A DNA stretch of 64,000 bases, from NCBI GenBank assembly GCA_964473025.1, contig CAYYMZ010000001.1, positions 24,163 through 88,162 on the forward strand. The letters run 5' to 3'. Origin of the DNA: an uncultured Candidatus Saccharibacteria bacterium (GTDB lineage Bacteria; Patescibacteriota; UBA1384; DTJR01). Under the pieces are notes generated by a model. The model had not been told where the DNA came from and searched no databases. It was given only the letters and a program-made list of their open reading frames with translations. Made by a program: the position numbers and the translations under genes. Below are positions 29-14,634 of the stretch, one piece after another (position 1 is the first letter of the stretch; every line of letters starts with the position of its first letter).

Positions 29-1288
29 ATGGAACCAATAATCAAAATCGAGGGTTTAGGGAAAAAATATACGATAGGAACAAGAGAGCCCTATTACGCT
101 CTTCGTGATCACCTCGCTGGTTTTTTCAATTTTAGAAAACCAAAAAAGAAGAAAGAAGAGTTTTGGGCTCTTAAAAATATTAATCTTGAAATCAAGCGAG
201 GCGAAGCGATCGGCATTATCGGGCGAAATGGTGCGGGGAAAAGTACGTTGTTGAAGATTCTCTCGCAAATCACCCCTCCGACCGAAGGCAAGATCATCAT
301 GGAAGGAAGGGTAGCTTCTCTTTTAGAGGTCGGTACCGGTTTCAATCCGGAGCTGACAGGGCGGGAAAATATTTATTTAAACGGCGCGATTTTGGGTATG
401 TCGAGGTCCGAAATCCGGAAAAAATTTAATGAGATTGTCGCTTTCTCCGAAATTGAAAAATTTCTTGATACACCAGTCAAACGCTACTCGAGCGGAATGT
501 ATGTTCGGCTCGCCTTCGCGGTCGCGGCACACTTGGAGCCAGAAATTTTATTGGTTGATGAAGTTTTAGCTGTTGGTGACGCACAGTTTCAAAAAAAATG
601 CCTTGGCAAAATGAGCGAGGTAGGCAAACACGGCAGGACAGTGGTTTTTGTTTCTCACAATATGGCGGCCATATCTAATCTTTGTTCGCGTTGCATCTAT
701 TTGGAGTCGGGTCAGGTTAGATATATCGGCGAAACAAAAAAAGCAATCGAGAGATATATTAGTCAAGCAGATGATGCTTTGGGTATTAAAAAATGGAACT
801 TGAAAGATATGCCTAAATCAGAAAGCGTTCGCCTGGAATCAGTCAGAATCGTCTCCGGTGGCAAGATGACGAGAAGTGTTTATATCAACAAGGAAGTCCA
901 GGTAGAAATCTCATATAACTGTCTTAAACAAGACAGCATTCTACATCCTGTTATTCATCTACGCGATGAGCTTGGGTCTCTGGTTTTTGCTTCAGCAGAT
1001 TTCCCTTCGGCGAATTTGGGTGACAATTATTGGTATGGCAAAAAAAGGCCAGTTGGTGTTTACAAATCGACCTGCATCTTGCCAGCAAATTTTTTGAACG
1101 ACAACACATATCACTTGGATATCGGAATCGCTGATGAAAAACATGCATGGAAAATCAACGAGCTTGATGTTTTGAGCTTCACGGTCGAGGAAACGGGAGA
1201 AATGAAAAAAGAATATATGGGTGAATGGATAGGGGCGATCAGACCGAAGCTTCTCTGGGAAACAGAGCTTTTGAGAAAGGAAAAATAA
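29..1288 (+). CDS. wzt: ABC transporter ATP-binding protein for polysaccharide/O-antigen export (Wzt/TagH type) with extra C-terminal domain
   Basis: Walker A GRNGAGKST, ABC signature LSGGM, Walker B ILLVDE; 419 aa with ~170 aa C-terminal extension as in Wzt; first gene of glycan locus. Confidence 0.8.
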   Translation: MEPIIKIEGLGKKYTIGTREPYYALRDHLAGFFNFRKPKKKKEEFWALKNINLEIKRGEAIGIIGRNGAGKSTLLKILSQITPPTEGKIIMEGRVASLLEVGTGFNPELTGRENIYLNGAILGMSRSEIRKKFNEIVAFSEIEKFLDTPVKRYSSGMYVRLAFAVAAHLEPEILLVDEVLAVGDAQFQKKCLGKMSEVGKHGRTVVFVSHNMAAISNLCSRCIYLESGQVRYIGETKKAIERYISQADDALGIKKWNLKDMPKSESVRLESVRIVSGGKMTRSVYINKEVQVEISYNCLKQDSILHPVIHLRDELGSLVFASADFPSANLGDNYWYGKKRPVGVYKSTCILPANFLNDNTYHLDIGIADEKHAWKINELDVLSFTVEETGEMKKEYMGEWIGAIRPKLLWETELLRKEK

Positions 1289-2985
1289 TGGGTTATGTTC
1301 GGGAAAAATACACAAGAGAATACTTCTTAAGGCAAGATGCTAATGGCAATAAAACAAATATTGGCGTTGAGGGCCTAGAGGAGTTTTTATCTGGAGATAT
1401 AAGAAAGGTGGATAAGAACCTTCTTGGAAAGATCGATTTTAAGGACAAAATTGTAGTTGACTTCGGTTTCGGACGCGGCGAGGCAATTAAGTATATATGT
1501 GAACAAGGAGCGAAGAAGGTTTACGGTGTTGATTTCTCGAAAGCGAGCATTGAAATTGCCTCGAGTATGTTAGAGCACTACGGCCACCGGGCCGACCTGG
1601 AATGTAGTGATGCTCTTGAGTATATGCAAAAGTTTGTTAAAAGTGACAAAACGGTTAAGTTTGACGTTGTTATAATGTTCGATTTTGTTGAGCATATTTC
1701 ACGAAGCGAACTCGGTCAACTGCTCTCGTATCTTAGGAAAACTATGAGCGAGAAGGGGTTGGTTGTTATTAACACTCCTATCTATAAATCTGATAATGAT
1801 GTAATCAAAGAAGGGCTCAAGGAGGAGGCGAGAGACGCAAGCGATGAAATGCCGCAAACAGAAGGTATGCACTGCAATCGATATACCAAAAAATCCTTAA
1901 TTAAATTCATGAAAAGCAATGGTTTTAATGCGATATCCCCTAAATTTTTCTCCCCAAGTTTTAAAAGTGGTTTTGCACTGACAAATGCTCAAAAATGGTC
2001 TAATGCAAAAAGAAATCTTTTCCCCGTACAGGGCCGGTATCGAAAAGATTCGTTCGAAAAAGCCTTAACTAGCGCACAAATTAGAAAAATGGGTTGGAAA
2101 AAAGTCTTTTCCCCAGCTATATTACCCATTATTTTACCTCCAGCATTTTTTATTTTAAAAAACCGACTATTTCCCTCAAAAAAGGTCCCAATCTATAGCT
2201 ACAATCCAATTTGGCATAAAATAAAGGGCGGCGCCTTAAGGGGAAAATGGTTTTATATTGACACTCACGACAATAGTTGGCAGCAAGAAATTATCGAGGG
2301 GACTTATGATAAATTCTTCTTTGATTTTCTGAAAAAATATAACCTTGAGGGTAAAACTATTTTCGATGTGGGAGCTTTTGTTGGCTCCCACAGTTTGGCC
2401 TTTGCTCAGATGGTTGGTAAAAACGGTAAAGTTTTTTCTTTTGAACCAAATGAATTTAATATTAGCCGGATGAAGAAAATCTTTAACAGGAATAAAGACT
2501 TAGGGAAAAGAATCAAAATTGTTAAAGTTGCTCTTTCAGACAAAAACGGTTCCACGGTCTTTAGCTTTAGTAATCAAATAGACAATGGTTTTAGCTCTGG
2601 CGGATTTGTTGAGGGCTCGGATACGCCGAGGGAAGAGGCAGAATATGAAAAAAGTCATTTTAAAAAGTGCTCCGTTAAAAGTGTTAAGCTTGACGATCTT
2701 GAGGCAAGGATGAAAATCAAGGATTCGCCCCTCATCATCAAAATTGATACTGAGGGGGCGGAGGGGAATATTCTCGAATCTGGGCAAAAATATTTAAAAA
2801 AACACAAGCCGATTATCTTGGTCGAAATCCATTCCCCGGAGAATATGATTCACACCGTTCAAGTTTTAAGCAAGCTTGGTTATGAGATTTCAATTTTAAA
2901 AAAAGAGATCGATGGGCGGGTTTTTCTGTCTGCCAACCCAGATATTAAAAATAAATCTTATGCAGAAATTTACCCAAAAAATTAA
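1288..2985 (+). CDS. two-domain methyltransferase: N-terminal class I SAM-dependent MTase + C-terminal FkbM-family methyltransferase
   Basis: ATG at 1288 overlaps wzt stop (TAATG); N-terminal VVDFGFGRGEA SAM-binding motif; C-terminal FDVGAFVGSHSL..IKIDTEGAE typical of FkbM family. ORF-track start 1225 lies inside wzt. Confidence 0.7.
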   Translation: MGYVREKYTREYFLRQDANGNKTNIGVEGLEEFLSGDIRKVDKNLLGKIDFKDKIVVDFGFGRGEAIKYICEQGAKKVYGVDFSKASIEIASSMLEHYGHRADLECSDALEYMQKFVKSDKTVKFDVVIMFDFVEHISRSELGQLLSYLRKTMSEKGLVVINTPIYKSDNDVIKEGLKEEARDASDEMPQTEGMHCNRYTKKSLIKFMKSNGFNAISPKFFSPSFKSGFALTNAQKWSNAKRNLFPVQGRYRKDSFEKALTSAQIRKMGWKKVFSPAILPIILPPAFFILKNRLFPSKKVPIYSYNPIWHKIKGGALRGKWFYIDTHDNSWQQEIIEGTYDKFFFDFLKKYNLEGKTIFDVGAFVGSHSLAFAQMVGKNGKVFSFEPNEFNISRMKKIFNRNKDLGKRIKIVKVALSDKNGSTVFSFSNQIDNGFSSGGFVEGSDTPREEAEYEKSHFKKCSVKSVKLDDLEARMKIKDSPLIIKIDTEGAEGNILESGQKYLKKHKPIILVEIHSPENMIHTVQVLSKLGYEISILKKEIDGRVFLSANPDIKNKSYAEIYPKN

Positions 2986-3025
2986 ACAGACAGTTTTGCA
3001 AAAATTCTTTACGCTTTTTTGTCTG

Positions 3026-3973
3026 ATGCTTGAAAAGCCTTTGTTTTATGACTGGGCCTCAATTTTTTTCTCGAGAGTTGCCGTAAATGGAACGGGTAGC
3101 AATAAATGCTTAAAAAGAGGTTTTTTGCCAGTTCCGGTTCATTTTTATTCTCCGATTCCCGATCTTAAGGACTTAGAGAAACGGAAGGTTTGGGACCAAA
3201 AAAGCAATCTTTCTGGGTTAGAGTTTGACATCAAAGAGCATCTCGCCTTTCTTCAGAGATTGGGTGAAAAATACGGCAAAGAATGTTCTTGGAAATTTGA
3301 GAAAACAGCCAAGGAAAGTGAATTTTACCTTGACAATAAAAGCTTTCTTTTTGGTGACGCCGCTTCCCTACACTCAATAATCAGAGAGTTTAAGCCAAGC
3401 CGGGTAATTGAAATCGGTTCCGGCAACTCATCCAAAATTATTTCCCAAGCCCTGAAGCTAAATAAAGAGGAGGGCGGAAAGAGTGGCGAATACACGATTA
3501 TTGATCCTTATTCTCTTAGGCATATTAGAAAAGGAGTGATAAATTACACGCATTTGATTAAGGAAAGGGTTGAATTAGTCGACCCTAAGATTTTTGAGCA
3601 ACTTGGGAAAAATGACATACTTTTTATCGACTCCAGCCATTCTGTAAAGATAGGGTCGGACGTCAATTTCCTTTTCTTAGAAGTGTTGGGGCGACTCAAA
3701 AGTGGAGTCTTTATACATTGCCACGATATCGACTTGCCTTATGAGTATCCAAAGTGTTATGCCACCGAAGAAAAATTCCACCAATTTTGGACCGAGCGCT
3801 ATCTCCTACAGGCCTTTCTTGCTTTTAACAATCAATTCGAAATTGTTTTGCCAATGGCCTACCTAATGCGTAATTATATTTCACGTTTCAAAAAACTTTT
3901 TCCATCTTATGATCCAAAAAAGCCGGGAGGGCGGCTTAGTATTAGTGTGAGTTTTTGGATGAGAAGAAAATAA
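3026..3973 (+). CDS. SAM-dependent methyltransferase, TylF/Methyltransf_24-like (putative sugar O-methyltransferase)
   Basis: VIEIGSGNSS glycine loop and FIDSSHS motif (D..H.Y-like) typical of Methyltransf_24; start uncertain (alternatives 2960, 2912). Confidence 0.55.
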   Translation: MLEKPLFYDWASIFFSRVAVNGTGSNKCLKRGFLPVPVHFYSPIPDLKDLEKRKVWDQKSNLSGLEFDIKEHLAFLQRLGEKYGKECSWKFEKTAKESEFYLDNKSFLFGDAASLHSIIREFKPSRVIEIGSGNSSKIISQALKLNKEEGGKSGEYTIIDPYSLRHIRKGVINYTHLIKERVELVDPKIFEQLGKNDILFIDSSHSVKIGSDVNFLFLEVLGRLKSGVFIHCHDIDLPYEYPKCYATEEKFHQFWTERYLLQAFLAFNNQFEIVLPMAYLMRNYISRFKKLFPSYDPKKPGGRLSISVSFWMRRK

Positions 3974-3985
3974 AATCGGTGTTTA

Positions 3986-5167
3986 ATGAAAAATAAGATT
4001 GCGATCCTTTCTCACGTCCTGCCTCCCTCGAGCAATGGACAAGCGATCATGCTTTACCGCCTGCTTGAGAAAACCCCGAAACAAGACTACATCTTGATTT
4101 TAAGCAGGAAATATCTCGGCAGAGAAAAAGAGCCAAGAAGTTCAAAAAAACTTGCCGGGAAATATTATACTCTCGAGATACCAAAAGAAACCGAACTAAC
4201 GATCCGCGAGTATATGAAAAAATCATTATACCGGCGTGCGGTCAGCTTTATCAGCACGGTCAGAACTCAAACAAAGCAATTGAAATCAATCCTAATTTCC
4301 GAAAAATGTGAAACGTTAGTTGCCTGCACCGGCGGATTTTTTGATCTTTTCGCCGCCTATCTCGCGGTCAGAAAATTAAAAATCCGCTTTGTGATTTATT
4401 CTTTTGATGACTACGTTTATCAGTGGACGGGAATTTTAAGGGTAATGGTGCGAATGATTGCAAAAAGAGCTTTTAAAAGAGCAGATCAACTGATTGCACC
4501 GAATGAATTTTTGCAAAAAGCATATTTCTCGCGCTACGGTAAAAAAAGCGTTATCGTCCGTAACCCATATATTCCATTTCGCATATCGAAGCAAAAAAAG
4601 GTCTTTAACAAAAAAGAAATCAACATTGTCTACACCGGTTCGGTTTATTTCGCTCATTTTGATGCGTTTAGAAATTTGATCAAAGCAATAGAGCTTTTAG
4701 ATATGCCTGCTAAGCTCCATATTTTTACGGGTCAGCCCAAACAAAAGCTTGAGAAGGAAGGCATTTCCGGTCGGCAGGTTATTTTCCATAAAAACGTTGA
4801 TCAAAGCGAAACCTGCAATGTCCAAAAACAAGCAGATATTCTTTTTTTACCCCTTGCTTTTGATTCTCCGATCGGTGAAACAATTAAAACCTCGGCTCCG
4901 GGTAAGATGGGCGAATATCTATCTTCCGGCCGGCCCATTCTAGTTCATGCCCCCAAGAATTCATACATTAGTTGGTATTTTAAGAAGAATAAGTGCGGCG
5001 TGGTCGCTGATACACCCGATCCAAAGCAATTAGCCGAAGCAATTGCCGAAATGATTAAAAATAAAAGTAAATCAAAAGAATTTATTAGGAATGCAATAAG
5101 ACGAGCCAAGTCGGATTTCTCACTTGAAAAAGCGCGCAAAAACTTTAGCAGTGTAATTTCCGAATGA
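3986..5167 (+). CDS. glycosyltransferase, GT4-like
   Basis: 393 aa; C-terminal GT-B nucleotide-binding fold residues (EXXXG/KxGxxxxSxYxxE-like), stop overlaps next start (ATGATG). Confidence 0.65.
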   Translation: MKNKIAILSHVLPPSSNGQAIMLYRLLEKTPKQDYILILSRKYLGREKEPRSSKKLAGKYYTLEIPKETELTIREYMKKSLYRRAVSFISTVRTQTKQLKSILISEKCETLVACTGGFFDLFAAYLAVRKLKIRFVIYSFDDYVYQWTGILRVMVRMIAKRAFKRADQLIAPNEFLQKAYFSRYGKKSVIVRNPYIPFRISKQKKVFNKKEINIVYTGSVYFAHFDAFRNLIKAIELLDMPAKLHIFTGQPKQKLEKEGISGRQVIFHKNVDQSETCNVQKQADILFLPLAFDSPIGETIKTSAPGKMGEYLSSGRPILVHAPKNSYISWYFKKNKCGVVADTPDPKQLAEAIAEMIKNKSKSKEFIRNAIRRAKSDFSLEKARKNFSSVISE

Positions 5168-6390
5168 TGAAAACATTACTCCTTTCCCCTTCCTTGCCAA
5201 ACAAAAAATCCTCGGGCGGTATCATGATTTGTGATCTCTTGAGCTTGGTCAAAGAAGACGAGATTTTTGCTTTCGTAGCCAGAGACCCGCATTTAAAAAA
5301 CGTTTTAATTGAAAAATATCCTGCTCTTTCTGACATAGAAACAATCAAAAGACCAATAGAGTCGCCTTATAGTTTCCCGAGATGGTTTTTTGATAAAGCT
5401 CTCTCGCGGCAAATCGAAAAAATAAAAGATTTTTATATCAAATGGCGAGTAATTAGAAGAGCAGTTAGGTATGGCAAAAGAAACGGGGTTGAATGTGTTT
5501 GGGCGGTCCTTCAGGGTAAAACAATGATTATTAGTGCCCTTAAAGTTGCAAAAGCACTAGGCGTGCCCTTGATTTCTCAAATTTGGGATGAGCCCAAGTG
5601 GATTCTATCTGACACGGGAATTGACCAAAAAACCAAAGTAAAAATACTTAAGATTTTTGGGGAGACGGTTAAAGCAAGCAAGGTCTGTGCTACTGCGTCT
5701 GAGCCAATGGCTAAGAAATATCAAGACAAATACCGCACTAAAACAGTTGTCTTTATGGGAAGCTTGGATGCAAAAATGGCCCTCTCTGCGGCAAAGCGCA
5801 TAAATTATGGCAATAACTTAAAAATTGGTTTTGCCGGGCAGTTGTACGCAACCTCCGAGTGGAAAGCATTAATCTTGGCACTTGACGAAGTTGACTGGAA
5901 AATTCGCGGTAGGCGTGTTACTATTCACCTCTTGGGCGGGTTTGGTTCATCTGAAATGCAAAATCTGCCATCAAACCGGGTTGTAAATTTGGGCTACAAA
6001 TCACAACAGCAAACAATAAAAATTTTATCAAAAATGGATATCCTTTATTGCCCATATTGGTTCGACGAGGAGCACAGAGGTATTGCCAAAACAAGTTTTC
6101 CCAGCAAGCTAACAACCTATTTTGCAGCGGGTAGGCCGGTATTTTTCCATGGGCCGGAGTATTCCTCACCAGCGAAGTTTATCAGGGAAAACAAATGTGG
6201 TGTATTATGCCACTCGCTGAGAAGCAAAGATATTGTGAAACAATTTGAAGAGCTTTTGAGTGATCGCAAAAGATATAGTCAGATTACGCGAGCAGGGAGA
6301 GTGGCCTTTGATAAATATCTGACTTATGGTAATCTCTCAAATCAGCTAACAGTTTTTCTAAATATAGCGAAAGAGAGTATTTCAAGATGA
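5164..6390 (+). CDS. glycosyltransferase, GT4/GT1-like
   Basis: 408 aa; GT-B C-terminal domain similar to neighbour; translationally coupled (4-nt overlaps both sides). Confidence 0.6.
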   Translation: MMKTLLLSPSLPNKKSSGGIMICDLLSLVKEDEIFAFVARDPHLKNVLIEKYPALSDIETIKRPIESPYSFPRWFFDKALSRQIEKIKDFYIKWRVIRRAVRYGKRNGVECVWAVLQGKTMIISALKVAKALGVPLISQIWDEPKWILSDTGIDQKTKVKILKIFGETVKASKVCATASEPMAKKYQDKYRTKTVVFMGSLDAKMALSAAKRINYGNNLKIGFAGQLYATSEWKALILALDEVDWKIRGRRVTIHLLGGFGSSEMQNLPSNRVVNLGYKSQQQTIKILSKMDILYCPYWFDEEHRGIAKTSFPSKLTTYFAAGRPVFFHGPEYSSPAKFIRENKCGVLCHSLRSKDIVKQFEELLSDRKRYSQITRAGRVAFDKYLTYGNLSNQLTVFLNIAKESISR

Positions 6391-8675
6391 AAATATTAAT
6401 TGTAGCTTTCTCGGAGAGTATTCATGTTACCCGTTGGATTAATCAGCTGGAAGGCAGCAAAATCAAAGTTTATCTTTTTCCGAGTGTTGACAACGGAGTG
6501 ACTAATAAAGAGCTAAAAGACGCAACCGTTTTTCATTCATTCTACGGGAATCTGTCTTATCGAAATAAAAATGTAAAAACCAAAGGCATTCCAGTTTTAA
6601 GCCACTTGATTGGAATTGTGCTGAGGATGATTTTAAAAAAAATCAGACCTAATTATCACCAGGAGCGCCTGCGCCGGGTTATTAAAAAGATCAGGCCGGA
6701 TATTATTCATTCGATGGAGATTCAACATTCGTCTTATCTGGTTAGCGAGATTAAAAATAACTGGAAAGGAAATTTTCCGAAATGGATTGTAACTAACTGG
6801 GGAAGCGACATCTATCTTTACGGACAGCTTCCAGAACATCGAGAGAAAATAAAAAAGGTGCTAAGCTCTTGCGATTACTATTCATGTGAATGTCAAAGAG
6901 ATATTTTGCTCGGCAAAAAACACGGATTTTCAAAAGCCACTCTGCCAGTTTTTCCAAATTCTGGCGGGTTTAATTTGAAGAGATTAAAAAAAATTCGCGA
7001 AAAAATACCGCCCTCAAAGAGAAGGACGATTATCGTAAAGGGTTATCAAGGTTGGGCTGGAAGGGCCCAAGTGGCTCTACATGCGCTTGATTGTTGCGGA
7101 AAGCTGATAGATGGTTACCGCCTTGTAGTTTATTCTATCCAGCCTGATACGGGCGTTGGAATTGCCGCAGAACTTTTAGCTCAAAAATATAACTTGAGAC
7201 TAGTCCTTGTACCACTCCATACATCCCATGAGCAGATCCTAAAATATATGTCTCAAGCGCGGATCTCGATTGGTGTAAGTATTTCCGATGCAATTTCGAC
7301 AATGGTTTTAGAAGCGATGGTTATGGGATCCTTCCCGATCCAATCCAACACCTCCTGCGCTAATGAGTGGATCAAATCTGGCAAAACAGGTATGATTGTT
7401 CCGCCGGAGGATCCGGAGGTAATCGAGCGAGCAATAAGAAATGCTCTCACAAATGACAAGCTTGTCGACCGCGCCGCGCTCTTGAATTGGAAGGTGGCCG
7501 AGAAACAACTGGATCACAAATTAATAAAAAAGAAAATTATAAGGTTTTATAATGAGGTAACAAATATGAAAACAAATAAAACGTTTGTAACAGGAATTTT
7601 TGGTAGTGGCAAAACAACCTTTGTCAAGAAGTATGCCAAGGAGAACAAGATTAAACTTATTTCCTTTGATTGGAGCTTTAATTATCGCATAAAAGGAAAT
7701 CAATCACGCCGAATTTTACAAAATCTGCCGGAGCGTTTTGTGATGGACGCAATTCCAATCGACGAACAGGGTAGTTGGGATGATTTTATTGAGTATGAGA
7801 AAAAACGCGACGACGTTTCGGTCGTCTGTATTTATTGTCCCTCGATGAGCGTTTGGTTGAGAAGGGTTGGCAAGAGGCGGTCTATTATAAGGGTTGGCAA
7901 GAGAGCGGTCTATTATAAGGATTTTATGGGCGCCTTAAAATACTCGGCTAAAAAAACTCTGAGAAAGAGAATTATTCCTATTAACATTGAAGAGTTAAAT
8001 AAAGATTACCGCAGTTTTTTCACCGGCACTTTGACATCATTAAAAAAGTTCAAATCTGTCCGATATTATGACTCCTGCGCCAATGAATATACTACCCTTG
8101 GGGAGATGCTAAAGAGAATCAAAATTGACACCTTCCCATTCCAGGACTATCTCCAGAGTCGGCCCGAAGGTTATGACAAATACTATCAGGATATCGAAAT
8201 AATCAATTTCAAGGGATATTCAGAATCCTACAAAACATGGAATATTATCAAGGATTTAGTTAACTGGAAGGGAAAGGATGTAGTTGATTTAGGTTGCTTT
8301 CAAGGTTATTTTTCGTTTAAAGCCGAAGATGCCGGGGCTAACGTTATCGGCCTGGAAAAAAGCGAAACGGTTTTGAAAACAGCTAGATGGATAAATAAAT
8401 TAAGGGGTGGAAAGGTAAAATTAAGACAATGGGAGGGCGGAGAACTTATTCCGAAATGCGACATCGTTTTGTGTCTTAACGTCCTTCATCATTTTCCCGA
8501 CCCTGATAAGGTTATTGAGATGATGAATTGTAAAAAAATGATCTTCGAGATTAACAAAAAAGATCGGCCGATAGTTGAAAGACACTTGAAAGTTATAAAA
8601 ACCGTCCGGTCCCAAAGGGTAAAAAGGACGATTCTATTATGCGAGGCCAAGAAAGATCTTAAGAAATCTGCCTAA
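6387..8675 (+). CDS. three-domain fusion protein: N-terminal GT4-like glycosyltransferase, central P-loop NTPase/kinase-like domain, C-terminal class I SAM methyltransferase
   Basis: GT-B motif SISDAISTMVLEAMVMG; Walker A GIFGSGKTT at ~aa 405; MTase motif VVDLGCFQGYF..VLCLNVLHHF at C-terminus; 762 aa. Confidence 0.65.
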   Translation: MKILIVAFSESIHVTRWINQLEGSKIKVYLFPSVDNGVTNKELKDATVFHSFYGNLSYRNKNVKTKGIPVLSHLIGIVLRMILKKIRPNYHQERLRRVIKKIRPDIIHSMEIQHSSYLVSEIKNNWKGNFPKWIVTNWGSDIYLYGQLPEHREKIKKVLSSCDYYSCECQRDILLGKKHGFSKATLPVFPNSGGFNLKRLKKIREKIPPSKRRTIIVKGYQGWAGRAQVALHALDCCGKLIDGYRLVVYSIQPDTGVGIAAELLAQKYNLRLVLVPLHTSHEQILKYMSQARISIGVSISDAISTMVLEAMVMGSFPIQSNTSCANEWIKSGKTGMIVPPEDPEVIERAIRNALTNDKLVDRAALLNWKVAEKQLDHKLIKKKIIRFYNEVTNMKTNKTFVTGIFGSGKTTFVKKYAKENKIKLISFDWSFNYRIKGNQSRRILQNLPERFVMDAIPIDEQGSWDDFIEYEKKRDDVSVVCIYCPSMSVWLRRVGKRRSIIRVGKRAVYYKDFMGALKYSAKKTLRKRIIPINIEELNKDYRSFFTGTLTSLKKFKSVRYYDSCANEYTTLGEMLKRIKIDTFPFQDYLQSRPEGYDKYYQDIEIINFKGYSESYKTWNIIKDLVNWKGKDVVDLGCFQGYFSFKAEDAGANVIGLEKSETVLKTARWINKLRGGKVKLRQWEGGELIPKCDIVLCLNVLHHFPDPDKVIEMMNCKKMIFEINKKDRPIVERHLKVIKTVRSQRVKRTILLCEAKKDLKKSA
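7862..7916 (+). repeat. imperfect tandem duplication (27 nt + 28 nt) inside the fusion-protein CDS
   Basis: gttggcaagaggcggtctattataagg / gttggcaagagagcggtctattataagg; extra nt in copy 2 makes the two copies read in different frames (VGKRRSIIR vs VGKRAVYYK) yet ORF stays open. Confidence 0.85.
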
Positions 8676-8736: not shown

Positions 8737-9687
8737 ATGAAAGTATTAGTTGTTGGTGGAGCGGGATATTTGGGCGGTGCAGTCACGGACCTTTTGGCCC
8801 AAACCGATCATAAATTCAGGGTCTACGATGCCCTTTTGTACGAAGATGCATATTTAAAAAAAGTTGACTTTGTTTATGGTGATATCCGCGACAGAAAAAA
8901 ACTTTTAACTAATCTAAGATGGGCCGACGTGGTCGTGTTTTTAGCGGCACTAGTCGGAGATGGCGCCTGTGCCATCAATCCCGATATCTCGACAGAGTTA
9001 AACCACCTTGCCGTTGCTTGGTTGGCTGAAAATTTTGATGGCAGAATTATTTTTATGTCAACCTGCTCGGTTTATGGGGCGCAAGATGAGATTTTAAACG
9101 AAAAATCACCGATTAATCCATTGTCAGTTTATGCTGTGACTAAATTTGCCGCTGAAGTTCACCTTAAGAACAAAGATGCCATTATTTTCCGCCTCGGAAC
9201 ACTTTTTGGTGTCTCGGATGAATTTTCTAGGATTCGACTTGACTTAGTTGTAAATACGATGACCGCAAAAGCATATTCTGAAGGAGAGCTTAAAGTTTTT
9301 GGCGGTACGCAATACAGGCCGCTACTGCACGTCAAAGATGCGGCTCAGGCGATTGTGGATAATCTTGAAACCAAGCACAAAGGAATCTATAACTTACATA
9401 AAATAAATATCAAAATTTCTGATTTGGCCGAGGAGGTCAAAAAGCAATTCCCCAAAGTAAAAATTGAAAAGGTAAAAATGAAATTCGAAGATTCCAGAAA
9501 TTACCGGGTTTCATCTGATTTGGCCAAAAAAACCTTCGGGTTTAATCCACAATACTCGCCTTCTGATGGGATCAAAGAGCTTAAGAAAATTCTAGAAGAG
9601 GGACGGATTAGAGATCTTAATAGTCCGCGGTATACCAATCAAATGTTTTTAACACAATTTAATACCCATAAGTTGTGCAAGGAGTAA
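8737..9687 (+). CDS. NAD-dependent epimerase/dehydratase (SDR family, sugar-nucleotide modifying)
   Basis: N-terminal VVGGAGYLGG Rossmann motif; YxxxK-type SDR; good SD gaggtg upstream. Confidence 0.75.
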   Translation: MKVLVVGGAGYLGGAVTDLLAQTDHKFRVYDALLYEDAYLKKVDFVYGDIRDRKKLLTNLRWADVVVFLAALVGDGACAINPDISTELNHLAVAWLAENFDGRIIFMSTCSVYGAQDEILNEKSPINPLSVYAVTKFAAEVHLKNKDAIIFRLGTLFGVSDEFSRIRLDLVVNTMTAKAYSEGELKVFGGTQYRPLLHVKDAAQAIVDNLETKHKGIYNLHKINIKISDLAEEVKKQFPKVKIEKVKMKFEDSRNYRVSSDLAKKTFGFNPQYSPSDGIKELKKILEEGRIRDLNSPRYTNQMFLTQFNTHKLCKE

Positions 9688-9688
9688 A

Positions 9689-10153
9689 ATGCCAAAAGAA
9701 AAAGAATCAAATGAAGAAAAACCATATTTAATTGAGGGTGGAATTGCTATCGATGATCGAGGTCAGCTTGTATTTTCAAACGATTTTGATTTCAAGGGTA
9801 TCAAGAGATTTTATATGGTCGCAAACCATAAAGAAGGAATGGTGCGCGCTTGGCATGCCCACAAAAAAGAGGCGAAGTATGTTCTGGTCACAAATGGCGC
9901 GGCAGTTGCGGGAGCGGTCAAGGTAGACAATTGGGAAAATCCTTCTAAGTGGGTAGAAGTTAATCGCTTTGTCCTCTCGGCTAAAAAACCTTCTCTTTTG
10001 TATATTCCGGCGGGTTATGCTAATGGTTTTATGAACTTGACTGCTGATACTCAAATTATGTTTTTCTCGACCTTGACACTAGAGGAATCAAAGGGCGACG
10101 ACTTCCGTTTCGATGCCAGATATTGGGATATCTGGGAGGTTATTGAGCGTTAA
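9689..10153 (+). CDS. cupin-fold WxcM/FdtA-like sugar 3,4-ketoisomerase domain protein
   Basis: 154 aa; RAWHAHKKEAKYVLV..PAGYANGF resembles dTDP-4-keto-6-deoxyhexose isomerase/epimerase cupins. Confidence 0.5.
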   Translation: MPKEKESNEEKPYLIEGGIAIDDRGQLVFSNDFDFKGIKRFYMVANHKEGMVRAWHAHKKEAKYVLVTNGAAVAGAVKVDNWENPSKWVEVNRFVLSAKKPSLLYIPAGYANGFMNLTADTQIMFFSTLTLEESKGDDFRFDARYWDIWEVIER

Positions 10154-11987
10154 AAACGCCGTCAGAAGGACAGTCCGGATTGGCTGATCCGGTAAGCGCT
10201 TCATTAATATTTTTAAATTTAAAAATACTTCCGTCGAAAGAGTAACTGCATTTTGGTAAATAAGGGAGGTTGTAACCAAAATAGCTGTTTAAAACGAGCC
10301 GGAAAACATTGACCGAGCTCCCGCCCGAAGATAAATCATCACTAGTTGCTTTTGGTATATGGTAAGCGGCCAATATCCCGTATTTCATCTGGAGATTTTC
10401 ACTAGACAGCTGTTCCTTTTCAGCTAGGGTCATCTCCGCACTCGGTGCCTCGGCCCCAGCGGAGAGCATATTATCACGGGCAGGATAAGGGCCTTCATCT
10501 GATTGAATTATGATAATTGCCTGGCCGTCTGATTTCTGCAAGGCCGTGCTTACGATTTCTTTCATTTGGCTGTTGATAAATTCAACTTGACCGACATATT
10601 TTTCTTTAACTGGCTTGCCAATATTATTGATGCCCGTTGTTTTCGATAGTGAGCCATCAGCGTTAAAATAATACGGGTTGTGGGGCACTAGGATGTGGGA
10701 GAAAATAAATCTTGACCCCGGTGTTTGATCTGCAAGCTCTTTAAGTTTGCTTATGGAAGACAAAGATTGGTCTTTCTGGTTCATCCCTCCGTATGAAATA
10801 ATGGTAAAATTGCCGATTTTTATTCCGTGCACAATTGTTTTCCAGTAGATGCTGTTTGCCAATTCTTTCTTTTCAAATGTGTTAAGCGCGTAAATACGCC
10901 CAAAGATATTAAGGTGGGCGCCTGATTTATAGTCATTATCTGCCAGTGGCGCCTTGCTCGACACGTCGTAATATGAACCAAGATTATAATATTGATAACC
11001 GAGCTTTTTAAGCTCTTTGGCAACCGGAGAATAGAGGGCAGAATTAAAATAAGGCGCGTATGTCTGAAGTGAACTTTTGGCGAACAGTTGAGTCAAATCG
11101 CCGTGGTAGTTGGCCCGTAAAGTGGACGAGACAGAAGAAGCGGTGTTGGGATAATTAGCGTGCGCATTCGGATCGATTGAAAACCCGTTGTCTCTAAGAA
11201 AGTTAGCGAAATCCGAATTATCAAAGCCGAACCTATCTCTTAAAATATTTTCGTTTGTATATCGATCTAAGACAATATAGTAAATATCCGGTTTATCGTC
11301 GGGGTTCATATTGGCACCCTGTTCGAAAAGCGCCGCAGGCCGGTAGAAAAACTGCGGCCATTCTAAAACTGCGATGCGCAAAACAGAATAAAGCTGGATT
11401 GAAAATGTAACCAAGATTGCGATGACAGCTCCTCTGAAGAAAACATCTAGGTTTAATTTTCGTGACTTCATTAAACCGTCAACCTTGATAAACAGATAAT
11501 AAACAATCGCGACAAAGAGAACCACGAAGATAATTAAATTATAGCCTCCGAGAAAATCGATGATTTTAGATATAAAACCGACAGAACGAAATAAGTTCCA
11601 AACTGGTTGCAATATCATGTCGACTCTCCCTCTGATCGCGAAATAAAATCCAACTGCCAAGAGGAGAGCGACAAACCTGTTCTTTGTAAAAGGCCAAAAA
11701 GCCGTTAATGCCAGAAGCGCGCTGGAGACAGCGATTAAAATAAGAGGCAAAGCCAGGTCAAACAGGGAAATTTGCATTCTGTCTCTGATAAAGTCCGTCA
11801 ACGGCTGCAGGCTCAGCAGAAGAAAGATCGGGATCCACAACGCAAGAAAATTCTGCAGCCATTTCGGAGTAATATTCCCTAAAAAACGTGAAACTACTAA
11901 ATATGATTTTGCAAATCTTTTTGCCCACGATATTGCAACGGACTTATTTTCTCCAGTCTTTTTTACTCTTGATTTGACTTTTTTCAC
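10140..11987 (-). CDS. membrane-anchored sulfatase-like (alkaline phosphatase superfamily; LtaS/phosphoglycerol-transferase-like) enzyme
   Basis: N-terminal ~5 TM helices then extracytoplasmic domain; SHILVPHNPYYF resembles sulfatase/LtaS metal-site region. Confidence 0.55.
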   Translation of the reverse strand: MKKVKSRVKKTGENKSVAISWAKRFAKSYLVVSRFLGNITPKWLQNFLALWIPIFLLLSLQPLTDFIRDRMQISLFDLALPLILIAVSSALLALTAFWPFTKNRFVALLLAVGFYFAIRGRVDMILQPVWNLFRSVGFISKIIDFLGGYNLIIFVVLFVAIVYYLFIKVDGLMKSRKLNLDVFFRGAVIAILVTFSIQLYSVLRIAVLEWPQFFYRPAALFEQGANMNPDDKPDIYYIVLDRYTNENILRDRFGFDNSDFANFLRDNGFSIDPNAHANYPNTASSVSSTLRANYHGDLTQLFAKSSLQTYAPYFNSALYSPVAKELKKLGYQYYNLGSYYDVSSKAPLADNDYKSGAHLNIFGRIYALNTFEKKELANSIYWKTIVHGIKIGNFTIISYGGMNQKDQSLSSISKLKELADQTPGSRFIFSHILVPHNPYYFNADGSLSKTTGINNIGKPVKEKYVGQVEFINSQMKEIVSTALQKSDGQAIIIIQSDEGPYPARDNMLSAGAEAPSAEMTLAEKEQLSSENLQMKYGILAAYHIPKATSDDLSSGGSSVNVFRLVLNSYFGYNLPYLPKCSYSFDGSIFKFKNINEALTGSANPDCPSDGVFNAQ

Positions 11988-13372
11988 TTTAGACCCTTAA
12001 CCTTCATTAAGTGAATAATGCGGTGACTTCCCGGAATTTTTTCTTTTTTAAGAATTTTGAATTTTTCGGAAAAACTTGCTTCAAATCCCTCGATTGTGTA
12101 TCCGGGGAAAATATCCTCGCGCGAGGCCAAAAGCCGCTTAGTGTTTGAGTCCTGTTTTGGCACAAATTCGATAATTAAATATTTTGAAGTTTTGGCAAAT
12201 AGTTGTGCGATGTAAGACAGCGGAAGGTTATTGGCGATCGCCAAGTGGTGGATAAAAGCCAAGCACATCGAAAGGTCAAAATTGCATCTTTCAACAAAGG
12301 CGGTTCGCTCCTCGTTATTCCAACCAATCGAAGGGCTTGGATTAGTCAAATCGACGATCATTGGAAATAAACTCTTATCATTATTTTTCTTGATCGTCAA
12401 ATAAGATCTTTCGATCGCAAGTTCGTCGATATCAGAAGCTACGGTGAAAATCCCTTTCTCCGAAGCAAGACGGCTAAACGTCCCGTCATTTGCACCCGCA
12501 TCCCAGACCGATTTCGGCTTGATTTTATCTATCCAACCAGATACGATCTTCTTCTTTGCCTGGAATGCCCCTTTGGAATAATTTGTGTCGTTGTAATATT
12601 CGCCCCAGACTGTTTTCTGCTGTGGCAAATTCAATGCGGTGGCGGTTGACTGCAGGCTAGAAATAATCCCCAACAGTTGATTCTTGGTAATTCCTCGCCT
12701 CCGTTTTTTTATAACGCTTGGGTCGGTATATTTTTGCTGGCCTTTTGCGTGAAAGTGTAAATGGATTCCGAGCCCTAAGGATAATTTGGTTTTCCCAGGC
12801 AGAAGGCGCGATGCTAAATCGAGCGGAATGCCGTCAAGGTAGATTTCAAGTAATTTATTTAACCGTAAATCGGTTTTAGACATCAGTGCCAAGGGAGCCA
12901 GGAAGTGCTGACAAAATTGTTTATATGCTACCCAGGGCTCTCCCGTTTCGTAAATGCCGAAGGATAAAGTGTCGATTAAAACCGGTTTTCCGCGCAAAAA
13001 CTGAATATTATATGCGGATGCGTCCTTAAGGGTCATGCCGTAGGATAGAGCGATTTTCTGAATTTCTATTGTTAGAAGTGCGGCATCCTTTAACTGGCTA
13101 AAACTCCATTCGTACGGATAAGATAAAAAAGGGATTTGCTCCAGAAGCAAAATTTTATAAGTGTCTTGGAAGCTCTTGTTTCGGACTTCTTTGTGATTTA
13201 CAATCAGGCCTTTATCCAACAATTCGGCAAATAAACCAGTGCTCATGAGCATTTCATATTCTCTTGCGTATGATTTATTTACTTGTCTGTAAACTAAGGA
13301 CCCAGAACGGAAAACAAAACCGCTTGGGTCCCTGAAAGAGGAGGGGACCTTATTTGGATTTTTTGAGTTCAT
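11984..13372 (-). CDS. hypothetical protein with C-terminal class I SAM-dependent methyltransferase domain
   Basis: VWDAGANDGTFS glycine-loop motif and downstream acidic residue; N-terminal ~250 aa of unknown function; start chosen at internal Met (MNSKNP), ORF-track start 13444 also possible. Confidence 0.5.
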   Translation of the reverse strand: MNSKNPNKVPSSFRDPSGFVFRSGSLVYRQVNKSYAREYEMLMSTGLFAELLDKGLIVNHKEVRNKSFQDTYKILLLEQIPFLSYPYEWSFSQLKDAALLTIEIQKIALSYGMTLKDASAYNIQFLRGKPVLIDTLSFGIYETGEPWVAYKQFCQHFLAPLALMSKTDLRLNKLLEIYLDGIPLDLASRLLPGKTKLSLGLGIHLHFHAKGQQKYTDPSVIKKRRRGITKNQLLGIISSLQSTATALNLPQQKTVWGEYYNDTNYSKGAFQAKKKIVSGWIDKIKPKSVWDAGANDGTFSRLASEKGIFTVASDIDELAIERSYLTIKKNNDKSLFPMIVDLTNPSPSIGWNNEERTAFVERCNFDLSMCLAFIHHLAIANNLPLSYIAQLFAKTSKYLIIEFVPKQDSNTKRLLASREDIFPGYTIEGFEASFSEKFKILKKEKIPGSHRIIHLMKVKGLK

Positions 13373-13637
13373 TTCCTTTGCTCTTTTCCTGGTTTTCTTT
13401 CTTCTTACGCAAACCGGAGAAAAATCTGATGATCCGGCTTCCATAGACCTTTAAAACATACCCAGCGCCAAGCCCGGCGCCGATTAAAATCTGGATAATA
13501 TAACTTCCCGTACCAGGGTCAAGATAAGCGTGGGCGTTTTTAATTGGCACAAGACATAACAGCAACAAAAGCAGAAACGGCGATTTCACACGCAAGGTGT
13601 TTATTTTTAATTTTGAACGAAATTTAATATCCGACAT
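13350..13637 (-). CDS. small hypothetical membrane/secreted protein
   Basis: 95 aa, hydrophobic stretch LLLLLLCLVPI and GAGLGAGYV; SD-like gaggg 10 nt upstream; overlaps 5' end of upstream ORF, so uncertain. Confidence 0.3.
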   Translation of the reverse strand: MSDIKFRSKLKINTLRVKSPFLLLLLLCLVPIKNAHAYLDPGTGSYIIQILIGAGLGAGYVLKVYGSRIIRFFSGLRKKKENQEKSKGNELKKSK

Positions 13638-13719: not shown

Positions 13720-14634
13720 GTGCGGTTAGTTTTACCCGTTGAACGTGACGGAAGTATCATACTTGACGTGACCAAAATCGAGCCGGGGGAGGGACATCGG
13801 CCTTTGGAGGCCAAGTATGCGGGCGCAGATCCCGCAGCTCTGCATCGGCTCACCAAACGAATCCGGGGGCCAATCTCGACCTACTGTTGGCCGGGTGAAG
13901 CAACCGCGCTTTTGGCACCGTTTGACAAGCTCCAAACCCTGCCCGAGCACCTGATCACAAAACTCAAGGCGAAGTACGGGGTGTGGGAGATTGGGGTGCT
14001 TCTAAACGAAGTGAGAAATACCGGCGCCCCCTACATCTGGAACGTCGCCGAGCCAAGCGGCGGTATGGCAGAAAGTGCCAACCTTGAGCTTGAGGCGATG
14101 CTCGAAATTGTCGAGATGGGGTTCTACAGGGAAGATGGCTGGGCGTCCTTTGATGTCTCGCGCCTTGCGAGTGCTGACCACTCGCAGGAAGTACTCGCCG
14201 AGCAGGAACGCTTGTGGCGTTCCATTAACCCCACCCTCGAGCGCAGGTGCGCGGTAGAGCTCTTGCCGATTGATCGTTTCGGCACAGATACCTTCAACGG
14301 GCGCCGTGGGATTATCTCGGTGCGCAAGGACGGCGGCCTCGGTTTTTTGAGAGCCGCTTACCTCCCTCTCAAAGAGGACGGATGGCGTCTGCGCGATCTG
14401 GAGGAGCATTTCGATCCGCAAAGCCAAACGAGCCAGATGCTCGACCGTAAGATCGTGGGGATTGTCGAGCGCATTGGCGGCAGATCGTCGCTGATGCTCG
14501 AGTTCGCCCCTAATGGCAGGCTTGATGAGTGCGGCCTGCACGTGGCCTTATCGGGCGAAGCGCTCAAGTACAACATCGGGCATCTAACCCGCTACGCGCT
14601 CGGTCCACGCGGTCTCGGCTGGATTAAGGACTAG
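13720..14634 (+). CDS. hypothetical protein (304 aa) in GC-rich islet
   Basis: 915-nt ORF in ~60% GC DNA (long ORFs unlikely by chance at this GC); GTG start, no clear SD; no recognisable motif. Confidence 0.5.
   Translation: MRLVLPVERDGSIILDVTKIEPGEGHRPLEAKYAGADPAALHRLTKRIRGPISTYCWPGEATALLAPFDKLQTLPEHLITKLKAKYGVWEIGVLLNEVRNTGAPYIWNVAEPSGGMAESANLELEAMLEIVEMGFYREDGWASFDVSRLASADHSQEVLAEQERLWRSINPTLERRCAVELLPIDRFGTDTFNGRRGIISVRKDGGLGFLRAAYLPLKEDGWRLRDLEEHFDPQSQTSQMLDRKIVGIVERIGGRSSLMLEFAPNGRLDECGLHVALSGEALKYNIGHLTRYALGPRGLGWIKD

What the first reader, a model, noticed from the sequence alone, without database searches (positions are those of the whole stretch)
6387..8675. Glycosyltransferase + P-loop NTPase + methyltransferase fused in one 762-aa protein, with a frame-switching internal tandem duplication
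A single ORF combines a GT-B glycosyltransferase (aa 1-380), a Walker-A domain (GIFGSGKTT, kinase-like) and a class I SAM methyltransferase (VVDLGCFQGYF). This could be a one-polypeptide module that adds, phosphorylates or activates, and methylates a sugar. Inside it (7862-7916) is a 27+28-nt tandem duplication whose second copy carries one extra nucleotide, so the two copies translate differently (VGKRRSIIR / VGKRAVYYK) yet the frame is restored. This suggests a recent slippage event or a contingency-type locus.
Basis: seen in the sequence. Interest (0 to 1): 0.55.

Follow-up and report, generated by a model that had tools for sequence, protein, structure and literature searches.

The report
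Glycosyltransferase fused to kinase–methyltransferase capping module
A candidate-phyla (Patescibacteria) bacterium encodes one real 762-residue enzyme that joins a sugar-adding domain to a kinase-plus-methyltransferase pair, which probably caps a surface polysaccharide before export; the small internal DNA duplication is a harmless recent insertion in a floppy loop.

Summary
ORF 6387-8675 (762 aa) contains a GT4 glycosyltransferase, a P-loop domain and a class I SAM methyltransferase. It also carries a 27+28-nt tandem repeat at 7863-7917.

The fusion is genuine. Six full-length relatives (41-80% identity) keep the frame open. Elsewhere the same GT and a two-domain P-loop–MTase protein are separate adjacent genes. 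Fusions arose several times, once in the opposite order with a different GT.

The P-loop domain folds like small-molecule and polynucleotide P-loop kinases. The gene sits in a Wzm/Wzt ABC-transporter glycan operon whose Wzt carries a C-terminal carbohydrate-binding-type domain.

Best reading (inferred, about 0.45): the kinase–MTase pair installs a methyl-phosphate-type terminal cap, like WbdD or K. pneumoniae O7 ORF6, but with a non-homologous kinase fold.

The repeat is a recent 28-nt microhomology duplication made in-frame by a 1-nt loss, which adds 9 residues. It lies in a loop that varies from 15 to 103 residues across the family. It is absent from all relatives and identical in five assemblies. 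Nothing supports a contingency locus.

The parts
6387..8675 (+). Whole fused ORF, 762 aa (GT4 + P-loop kinase-like + class I MTase). Its start overlaps the stop of the upstream GT gene (ATGA).
   Evidence: The identical protein is on other contigs.
6387..7562 (+). GT4 (GT-B) glycosyltransferase domain, aa 1-392.
   Evidence: PF13477 and PF00534 are above cut-off. More than 100 standalone homologues of about 420-430 aa exist.
7554..7568 (+). Domain junction: SD-like GAGG (7554-7557) followed by in-frame ATG 7566 (Met394). This is the likely relic of the start of a once-separate kinase–MTase gene and a possible internal initiation site.
   Evidence: GAGG/GGAG plus ATG is conserved in the window, L003, L023 and L024 despite 60-75% local nt identity. 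Contigs L001 and L002 start at 7516/7517. The recombination breakpoint is here.
7566..8156 (+). P-loop kinase-like domain (aa 394-590). Walker A is at 7593-7619. Candidate catalytic Asp428, Asp454 (MDAIP) and the W490-x-x-R493 motif lie within it.
7863..7889 (+). Repeat copy 1 (27 nt). This is the inserted copy and encodes RVGKRRSII. It is unique to this lineage.
7890..7917 (+). Repeat copy 2 (28 nt). This is the ancestral copy and encodes RVGKRAVYY(K), as in all relatives.
8166..8672 (+). Class I SAM methyltransferase domain (aa 594-762). Motif I is at 8280-8312. Invariant residues are Tyr600, His701-His702 and Arg747; Arg744 is conserved in at least 90% of sequences.
29..1288 (+). Wzt-type ABC ATPase with a ~170-aa C-terminal extension matching Wzt_C (sub-threshold). 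It is the first visible gene of the operon; Wzm would lie off the left end of the window.
   Evidence: Relatives have Wzm plus Wzt(Wzt_C) in the same clusters.
1225..3973 (+). Two further methyltransferase genes: a 586-aa protein with Methyltransf_23 plus FkbM domains, and a 353-aa Methyltransf_24 protein.
3986..6390 (+). Two GT4 genes (GT_a 3986-5167, GT_b 5164-6390). A GT_a homologue is fused to the kinase–MTase in P0222.
8737..10153 (+). NAD-dependent sugar epimerase/dehydratase (316 aa) and a cupin dTDP-sugar isomerase-like protein (154 aa). These are sugar-nucleotide precursor genes.

Best explanation
The ORF is a real three-module enzyme of a Wzm/Wzt ABC-transporter-dependent cell-surface glycan pathway in a Patescibacteria (Berkelbacteria-like) genome.

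Shown:
- The N-terminal GT4 glycosyltransferase is fused to a pre-existing, rigid two-domain unit made of a P-loop kinase-fold domain and a class I SAM methyltransferase.
- In most genomes this unit is a separate ~360-aa protein. In three loci where both genes are visible (L025-L027) it lies directly downstream of the same GT.
- The unit has been fused to GTs several times independently.

Inferred mechanism:
- The GT extends the lipid-linked glycan.
- The kinase domain phosphorylates a hydroxyl of the non-reducing terminal sugar with NTP. Lys409/Thr410 would bind the NTP, Asp428 would act as base, and an Arg at W+3 would act as a LID-type arginine.
- The MTase then methylates that phosphate. 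The conserved Tyr600, His701-His702 and Arg744/Arg747 would form a cationic pocket.
- The resulting cap stops elongation and is read by the C-terminal domain of Wzt for export. This is functionally like WbdD (E. coli O9a) and ORF6 (K. pneumoniae O7), but with a non-homologous kinase fold and no coiled-coil ruler.

The 27-nt copy is a recent AAGG-microhomology 28-nt tandem duplication followed by (or accompanied by) loss of one A. An uncompensated duplication would truncate the protein at aa 511. The net 9-residue insertion lies in the length-variable, low-confidence LID-like loop, is fixed in the sampled population, and is probably near-neutral.
For: Architecture.

The fusion is real:
- Full-length relatives P0001-P0006 share 41-80% identity.
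- Four DNA loci from different samples keep the frame open through the junction.
- The identical 762-aa protein is on contigs from other assemblies.

The kinase–MTase is a separate unit elsewhere:
- About 100 standalone P-loop–MTase proteins were found, and 66 representative clusters score E<1e-30.
- Adjacent separate genes in the order [PF13477 GT] then [P-loop–MTase] occur in L025, L026 and L027.
- P0222 is an opposite-order fusion with a GT_a homologue.
- Fusions are polyphyletic in a neighbour-joining tree.

Kinase fold:
- The AF2 models have pLDDT 90-91 and pTM 0.87.
- The profile matches RNA 5'-OH kinases 9drz and 9d8a (E about 1e-5) and CthPnkp kinase (identity of 9drz/9d8a from PMC11571804).
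- G403, G408, K409 and D454 are invariant and D428 is at least 90% conserved.

Context:
- Wzt with a Wzt_C-like extension heads the operon.
- Wzm and a long Wzt are in the same cluster in L004, L006, L008, L025 and L026. A Wzt_C match is on record for the first four. L009 shows only the Wzt_C end of Wzt, because its contig stops there.
- In the L008 operon the P-loop–MTase is the only MTase.
- Wzt (94% aa) and kinase–MTase (94% aa, dN/dS 0.16) stay conserved between the window and L003, while all three GT modules are swapped (55-68% aa, dS saturated). This is the pattern expected if the cap and the cap reader are kept together.

Precedent:
- WbdD phosphorylates and then methylates the terminal mannose, and Wzt's CBM needs that cap (PMC3482155).
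- O7 ORF6 combines MTase, kinase and GTs in one polypeptide (PMC11231755).

Repeat.
Against: - No biochemical data exist, and the cap chemistry is inferred by analogy.
- The window operon has three other MTase domains, and a Methyltransf_24 gene next to wzt recurs in many relatives. Any of these could be the capping enzyme instead.
- Wzt_C scores are below Pfam's cut-off (23.7-26.7 against 30.4 bits).
- No coiled-coil ruler is present.
- Distant family members L010, L013 and L014 show no ABC-transporter (Wzt-like) gene within the available flanks.
- Equivalence of Tyr600, His701/702 and Arg744 to WbdD Tyr16, His132/133 and Arg203 was not tested.
- The host is a CPR bacterium that presumably lacks LPS, so the glycan class is unknown.
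Confidence: 0.45

Rival explanations
1. The kinase and methyltransferase domains decorate the glycan independently. For example, one O-methylates a sugar hydroxyl and the other phosphorylates a different position or internal residues. They would not build a methyl-phosphate terminal cap. Termination, if any, would be done by one of the other methyltransferases in the operon.
For: - The operon contains a Methyltransf_23+FkbM protein and a Methyltransf_24/TylF-like protein. The latter recurs next to wzt in relatives.
- The MTase fold matches generic small-molecule O-/N-MTases as well as it matches WbdD.
- The E. coli O8 terminator methylates a hydroxyl directly (PMC3482155).
Against: - The two domains form one conserved, confidently packed unit (pTM 0.87). 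They are nearly always encoded together, which suggests coupled chemistry.
- In L008 and L009 no other MTase is in the operon.
- The invariant His-His and Arg residues fit a phosphate-binding pocket, although this is an untested inference.
Confidence: 0.3
2. The P-loop domain does not act on the glycan. It would be a nucleotide/NMP-type kinase, an NTPase that regulates the enzyme, or a purely structural domain. In that case the protein is effectively a GT plus a methyltransferase.
For: - All Pfam P-loop models are sub-threshold.
- The nearest structures include adenylate/uridylate kinases and Fap7/AK6.
Against: - Walker A Gly/Lys and Asp454 are invariant, and Asp428 after beta-2 is at least 90% conserved, across 82 sequences at 30-60% identity. 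The Asp after beta-2 is at the position of the catalytic base in hydroxyl-phosphorylating P-loop kinases; that assignment rests on general knowledge of T4 PNK, shikimate kinase and CPT.
- dN/dS is 0.16.
- There is no NMP-binding Arg in the D-A-I-P motif.
- The domain is obligatorily coupled to the MTase and GT genes.
Confidence: 0.12
3. The fusion is an artefact. Two separate genes (a GT and a P-loop–MTase) would have been mis-joined by a sequencing or assembly error at the junction or at the repeat.
For: - An in-frame ATG with an SD-like motif sits exactly at the junction.
- Two assemblies break at 7516/7517.
- Gene callers on those truncated contigs report a 369-aa product.
Against: - Identical full-length ORFs occur in contigs from ERZ27248920 and ERZ27248885.
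- Relatives at 60-80% nt identity from other samples (L003, L023, L024) and distant fusions (P0004-P0006, which have no Met at the junction) all keep an open frame.
- The repeat is identical in five assemblies.
Confidence: 0.02
4. The 27+28-nt repeat is a contingency (phase-variable) switch. It would toggle between the full-length protein and a product truncated after about 510 residues that lacks the methyltransferase.
For: A perfect 28+28 arrangement, or loss of copy 2, would truncate the protein at aa 511 or 508. Tandem copies can in principle expand or contract by recombination.
Against: - There are only two copies of a long unit, with no simple-sequence tract.
- The sequence is identical in the window and four other assemblies.
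- No relative carries any repeat here.
- Loss of one copy by recombination would either restore the ancestral in-frame state or truncate the protein, which is not a reversible on/off design.
Confidence: 0.03

Closest known systems
WbdD of E. coli O9a / K. pneumoniae O3 (bifunctional kinase–methyltransferase chain terminator; PDB 4AZS, 4AX8; PMC3482155)
   Same: - Kinase and class I SAM MTase are in one polypeptide.
- It is encoded in a Wzm/Wzt cluster whose Wzt has a C-terminal glycan-binding domain.
- A conserved His-His pair and Arg residues are present, as in WbdD's phosphate pocket.
   Different: - The kinase here has a P-loop NMP-kinase-like fold, not a eukaryotic protein-kinase-like fold.
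- Domain order is kinase then MTase, whereas WbdD is MTase then kinase.
- There is no coiled-coil ruler and no membrane-binding C-terminus.
- It is fused to a GT.
- Foldseek does not single out WbdD (rank 21).
- Activity is untested.
ORF6 of K. pneumoniae O7 (MTase–kinase terminator + coiled coil + two GT2 polymerase modules in one protein; PMC11231755)
   Same: Glycosyltransferase and methylphosphate-terminating MTase–kinase modules are combined in a single polypeptide of an ABC-transporter-dependent pathway. This shows that kinase types in such terminators are interchangeable.
   Different: - The ORF6 kinase resembles aminoglycoside/amicoumacin kinase AmiN.
- ORF6 has GT2 rather than GT4 modules.
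- ORF6 has a coiled coil and a CBM.
- No sequence relationship to ORF6 was detected here.
P-loop hydroxyl kinases: polynucleotide 5'-OH kinases (Mucorales RNA kinase 9DRZ/9D8A, PMC11571804; CthPnkp 4GP7), shikimate kinase, gluconokinase
   Different: - Sequence identity is only 14-24%.
- The domain is below the threshold of every curated family.
- It carries a 15-103-residue variable insert.
- It is permanently joined to an MTase.
- The substrate is unknown.
WsaE of Geobacillus stearothermophilus S-layer glycan pathway (methyltransferase + rhamnosyltransferase domains in one protein; recalled from memory, not checked here)
   Same: A GT–MTase fusion that terminates an ABC-transporter-dependent glycan in a bacterium without LPS.
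   Different: It has no kinase domain, it makes an O-methyl rather than a methyl-phosphate cap, and its domain families differ.

Membership tests
GT4 (GT-B) glycosyltransferases | Two Rossmann-like lobes matching Glyco_trans_4-type N-lobe and Glycos_transf_1 C-lobe models above curated cut-offs | tested here: met
   PF13477 scores 47.8 bits (cut-off 23.4) and PF00534 scores 51.1 bits (cut-off 26.4).
Class I SAM-dependent methyltransferases | Rossmann-like fold with motif I (D/E-x-G-x-G-like) and a curated Pfam match | tested here: met
P-loop kinases (NMP-kinase-like fold) | Walker A GxxxxGK[ST] | tested here: met
   GIFGSGKTT is at aa 403-411. G403, G408 and K409 are invariant in 82 sequences.
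P-loop kinases (NMP-kinase-like fold) | Five-stranded parallel sheet kinase fold, nearest structures being kinases rather than GTPases, AAA+ or ABC ATPases | tested here: met
P-loop kinases (NMP-kinase-like fold) | Membership of a curated kinase family (Pfam/NCBIfam score above cut-off) | tested here: not met
   All AAA_17/33/24/18 and kinase models are sub-threshold (at most 21 bits against 27).
P-loop kinases (NMP-kinase-like fold) | Phosphotransfer activity to a defined acceptor | not testable with these tools
   This requires an enzyme assay.
WbdD-type kinase–methyltransferase chain terminators | Kinase and MTase activities in one protein encoded with Wzm/Wzt whose Wzt has a C-terminal carbohydrate-binding domain | tested here: met
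   The Wzt_C matches are sub-threshold but consistent (E 5e-5 to 6e-6).
WbdD-type kinase–methyltransferase chain terminators | Eukaryotic-protein-kinase-like (or APH-like) kinase domain homologous to WbdD/ORF6 | tested here: not met
   The kinase domain has a P-loop fold. There is no ePK/APH Pfam or PDB hit.
WbdD-type kinase–methyltransferase chain terminators | C-terminal coiled-coil molecular ruler | tested here: not met
   The protein ends with the MTase domain. The longest helix in the model is 19 residues.
WbdD-type kinase–methyltransferase chain terminators | Phosphate-methylating active site (WbdD Tyr16, His132, His133, Arg203) | tested here: inconclusive
   The family has invariant Tyr600, His701-His702 and Arg747, and Arg744 in at least 90% of sequences. 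Residue-level superposition on WbdD could not be obtained, and His-His at this position also occurs in other MTases (PMC3482155).
WbdD-type kinase–methyltransferase chain terminators | Formation of a terminal methyl phosphate that stops polymerisation | not testable with these tools
   This requires in vitro reconstitution or glycan structure determination.
Contingency (phase-variable) repeat loci | Repeat tract with copy-number polymorphism that switches the reading frame | tested here: not met
   There are two copies only, the sequence is identical in five assemblies, and the repeat is absent in relatives. Read-level heterogeneity was not testable.

The most novel reading that the evidence does not exclude
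The P-loop-kinase–methyltransferase unit would be a third, evolutionarily independent class of methyl-phosphate chain terminators for ABC-transporter-dependent glycans. It is widespread in uncultured lineages (named MAGs: Patescibacteria, Nitrospiria, Gemmatimonadota, Anaerolineae, Thermotogae) and is repeatedly fused to its partner glycosyltransferases. Its 15-103-residue variable LID-like insert, where the window's 9-residue duplication landed, would tune acceptor recognition or chain length in place of a coiled-coil ruler.
Probability: 0.3. Interest if true: 0.65.

Novelty: new variant of a known kind. Interest (0 to 1): 0.45.

Why it matters
Chain termination by a terminal cap is how ABC-transporter-dependent pathways set polysaccharide length and license export. 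Only a few terminator chemistries and enzymes are known, all from Enterobacteriaceae. This family is uncurated and is annotated only as 'class I SAM-dependent methyltransferase' or 'hypothetical' in the few database records that carry any name.

If this P-loop kinase–MTase family is a terminator, three things follow:
- The methyl-phosphate strategy would extend to many uncultured phyla, including CPR bacteria that have no LPS.
- It would add a third non-homologous kinase recruited to the same job.
- It would give a compact, soluble, confidently modelled target for biochemical testing.

The locus also shows a clean example of cassette-type recombination. All three GT modules are swapped, while the transporter and the kinase–MTase are retained, with a breakpoint exactly at a domain boundary inside a fused gene.

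Tried and rejected
- I tried to obtain a residue-level alignment of the family MTase to WbdD by building an MTase-only profile (A4). WbdD ranked 10th, so its alignment was not printed. The equivalence of the His-His/Arg residues stays untested.
- Foldseek against the PDB did not single out WbdD (rank 21). I therefore do not use fold similarity as evidence for phosphate methylation.
- The afdb50 fold library was unavailable.
- The genome-contig scan returned only 13 loci, several of them partial or distant. The co-occurrence statistics are therefore anecdotal (about 9 informative loci), not quantitative.
- Literature searches found no report of a P-loop kinase–MTase terminator.
- I considered that the repeat marks a recombination joint. 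A short patch at 7838-7856 matches L023 rather than L003, but only about 5 sites support this, so it is left as a note.
- Misassembly was considered and rejected.
- The neighbour-joining tree has no support values. 'At least 3-4 fusion events' is indicative only.


Full report
**Observation**

The ORF 6387-8675 (+) encodes 762 residues. Pfam places a GT4 N-lobe (PF13477, aa 2-155) and C-lobe (PF00534, aa 261-362) above their cut-offs. Several class I SAM-methyltransferase models also score above cut-off at aa 628-718.

Between these domains lies a canonical Walker A, GIFGSGKTT (aa 403-411). Every P-loop Pfam or NCBIfam model is sub-threshold for this region.

TRF reports a period-28, 2.1-copy repeat at 7862-7920 with score 111. 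It is the strongest tandem repeat in the 64-kb window. Copy 1 (7863-7889, 27 nt) reads RVGKRRSII. Copy 2 (7890-7917, 28 nt) reads RVGKRAVYY. The ORF's frame does not switch, however: the first copy is simply a 27-nt, 9-codon in-frame insertion.

**Is the fusion real?**

Yes, on four lines of evidence.
- Six full-length relatives of 740-806 aa share 41-80% identity over 98-99% of the protein.
- Their loci from other samples (L003, L023, L024) keep an open frame across the junction, even though local nucleotide identity there is only 60-75%.
- The exact 762-aa protein occurs on contigs from other ENA assemblies (ERZ27248920 at 39.7 kb, and ERZ27248885). The C-terminal part occurs in ERZ27248939 and Logan SRR8437243. 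All are 100% identical to the window, including the repeat.
- dN/dS for the P-loop–MTase half against L003 is 0.16.

**Are the domains separate elsewhere?**

Yes.
- The GT half has more than 100 standalone homologues of about 420-430 aa.
- The C-terminal half (aa 394-762) belongs to a family that is mostly standalone, at 340-430 aa. It gives 102 hits in the word-indexed search, and 66 representative clusters score E<1e-30. The few records in that search that carry any name are labelled 'class I SAM-dependent methyltransferase', 'methyltransferase domain-containing protein', 'hypothetical protein' or, in JGI, a UbiG-type methylase.
- In L025 (a Nitrospiria MAG), L026 and L027 the PF13477-type GT gene lies immediately upstream of the P-loop–MTase gene. 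That is the pre-fusion arrangement.
- P0222 carries the P-loop–MTase at its N-terminus, followed by a homologue (40% identity) of the window's other GT at 3986-5167.
- A rough neighbour-joining tree places the fused forms in at least three or four separate positions next to standalone sisters.
- In the window's clade, an in-frame ATG (7566) preceded by GAGG/GGAG is conserved at the junction. This looks like the relic of the former start site and may still allow internal initiation. Distant fusions (P0004-P0006) have no Met there.

**What is the middle domain?**

- AlphaFold2 with an 82-sequence alignment gives pLDDT 91.4 and pTM 0.87 for aa 394-762, and pLDDT 89.9 for aa 394-591.
- A family profile aligns over about 100 residues with Mucorales RNA 5'-OH kinases (9drz and 9d8a, E about 1e-5; PMC11571804) and with CthPnkp kinase.
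- G403, G408, K409 and D454 (in MDAIP) are invariant, and D428 is at least 90% conserved. W490-x-x-R is present in most sequences.
- From general knowledge of T4 PNK, shikimate kinase and CPT, the Asp directly after beta-2 is the position of the base that activates the acceptor hydroxyl. 'Kinase-like' is therefore supported at fold and motif level, although the domain belongs to no curated family.

**Context**

- The gene is the sixth in a co-directional operon with overlapping stop and start codons. The order is: Wzt ABC ATPase with a ~170-aa Wzt_C-like extension; a Methyltransf_23+FkbM protein; a Methyltransf_24 protein; two GT4s; the fusion; a sugar epimerase/dehydratase; and a cupin isomerase. 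RmlD-like and UDP-GlcNAc 2-epimerase genes lie further on. Wzm would lie off the window's left end.
- The aspartyl-tRNA synthetase in the window is closest to Patescibacteria and Ca. Berkelbacteria sequences at about 70% identity. The product is therefore a non-LPS surface glycan.
- In relatives from a Thermotogae-labelled MAG, a Nitrospiria MAG and unclassified bacteria, Wzm and a long Wzt sit in the same cluster as the P-loop–MTase, a homologue of the fusion's GT and, in several of these loci, a GT_a homologue. A Wzt_C match is on record for all but L026. The Gemmatimonadota contig L009 begins inside Wzt, so only its Wzt_C end is visible.
- In the L008 operon the P-loop–MTase is the only methyltransferase.

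**Mechanistic inference**

- Wzt proteins with a C-terminal carbohydrate-binding module export only glycans that carry a non-reducing terminal cap. In E. coli O9a, WbdD phosphorylates and then methylates the terminal mannose (PMC3482155). In K. pneumoniae O7, one polypeptide combines the MTase–kinase terminator with GT modules, and its kinase is unrelated to WbdD's (PMC11231755).
- The protein here has the same logic: a kinase and an MTase as one rigid unit, physically or genetically coupled to GTs, inside a Wzm/Wzt cluster. Its kinase has a third, P-loop fold.
- The family's conserved Tyr600, His701-His702 and Arg744/747 parallel the Tyr16, His132, His133 and Arg203 that WbdD needs to methylate phosphate. 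I could not test their structural equivalence.
- I put the methyl-phosphate-cap reading at about 0.45. The broader statement, that the unit modifies the glycan made by this pathway, is much more likely.
- The main rival is independent O-methylation and phosphorylation, with another MTase of the operon acting as the terminator.

**Mosaic evolution**

- Between the window and the syntenic L003, several products are highly conserved: Wzt (94% aa), P-loop–MTase (94% aa, dS 0.17), the epimerase (99%) and the cupin (95%). GT_a, GT_b and the fusion's GT domain share only 55-68% aa, with saturated synonymous sites.
- The right-hand breakpoint lies at about 7530-7560, exactly at the GT/kinase junction. 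Two independent assemblies also break there, at 7516/7517.
- L003 and L023 share only the GT's N-lobe (6387-6950, 88-100% nt), which gives a second breakpoint between the two Rossmann lobes.
- This is cassette-type replacement of glycosyltransferase specificity with retention of the transporter and the kinase–MTase. That pattern is what co-adapted cap and cap-reader components would predict.

**The repeat**

- All seven aligned relatives lack the 9 residues. L003 is 100% identical for about 90 nt downstream of the insert but lacks the 27 nt.
- The 28-nt unit is bounded by AAGG microhomology, which is typical of slipped-strand duplication.
- A perfect 28-nt duplication would stop translation at aa 511. 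Retaining only copy 1 would stop it at aa 508. Deleting copy 1 restores a 753-aa ancestral-type protein. The missing A in copy 1 is therefore a compensating change, or part of one imprecise event, that preserves the downstream kinase elements and the MTase.
- The duplication regenerates the conserved W-x-x-R motif at its proper spacing. It adds RSIIRVGKR at the start of a segment that is the only low-confidence part of the model (pLDDT below 50 at construct residues 108-119).
- The length of that segment ranges from 15 to 103 residues in the family (median 48; the window has 50 with the insert). The insertion is thus well tolerated.
- With two copies only, and identical sequence in five assemblies, nothing indicates a contingency locus. 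Read-level data were not available.

**Verdict**

The three-domain fusion is real and is a recurrent evolutionary solution. The most likely role is glycan extension plus terminal capping, by a previously undescribed kinase–MTase family: a new variant of the WbdD/ORF6-type terminator principle. This role is inferred and not demonstrated. The tandem duplication is a recent, compensated, probably near-neutral insertion.

Noticed in passing
window 13720-15000: A GC-rich island (GC 0.58 against about 0.40 background) contains a 304-aa ORF (13720-14634) with no Pfam hit. Contig L001 from another assembly ends inside it at 14315. It may be foreign DNA or an assembly-problem region.
   Followed up: partly
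window 3285-7560 vs L003: All three GT modules (GT_a, GT_b and the fusion's GT domain) are 55-68% identical in protein, with saturated dS. The flanking Wzt, kinase–MTase, epimerase and cupin are 94-99% identical. This is a cassette swap whose right breakpoint is the GT/kinase domain junction inside the fused ORF.
   Followed up: yes
window 7516-7517 (starts of L001 and L002): Two assemblies (ENA ERZ27248939 and Logan SRR8437243) both break about 50 nt upstream of Met394. This coincides with the recombination breakpoint and suggests co-existing strains that differ upstream.
   Followed up: partly
window 6387-6950 vs L003/L023: L003 and L023 share 88-100% nt identity only over the GT N-lobe and about 65-75% afterwards. 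This is a second breakpoint, between the two Rossmann lobes of the GT.
   Followed up: partly
window 7554-7568: SD-like GAGG plus an in-frame ATG is conserved at the domain junction in four fused relatives. Internal translation initiation could yield a separate 369-aa kinase–MTase.
   Followed up: partly
window 7838-7856: A short patch just upstream of the repeat matches L023 rather than L003 at about 5 synonymous sites. This hints that the duplication sits at the edge of a small gene-conversion tract.
   Followed up: partly
L024 4190-5770 (minus strand): The gene next to the fusion encodes a 526-aa product with all three SAM-synthetase domains plus a weak sulfatase-family hit. This is an unusual combination beside a SAM-consuming enzyme.
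   Followed up: no
proteins P0225, P0232, P0258, P0217: The family's MTase, or the whole kinase–MTase unit, is fused to radical SAM/SPASM domains and TPR repeats in other metagenomic proteins.
   Followed up: no
window 11984-13444 and 10140-11987 (minus strand): A 486-aa protein has a class I MTase-like motif (VWDAGANDGTF) but no Pfam hit. Next to it is a 615-aa multi-pass membrane protein with a weak sulfatase/LtaS-like domain. Both are conserved next to the operon in L003.
   Followed up: no
window 62366-62427: A second in-window tandem repeat has period 30, 2.1 copies and 81% match (TRF score 82).
   Followed up: no
L025 5095-6968: In the Nitrospiria relative, two sulfotransferase genes follow wzt in the same cluster as the GT and kinase–MTase pair. 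This suggests alternative or additional terminal modifications.
   Followed up: no
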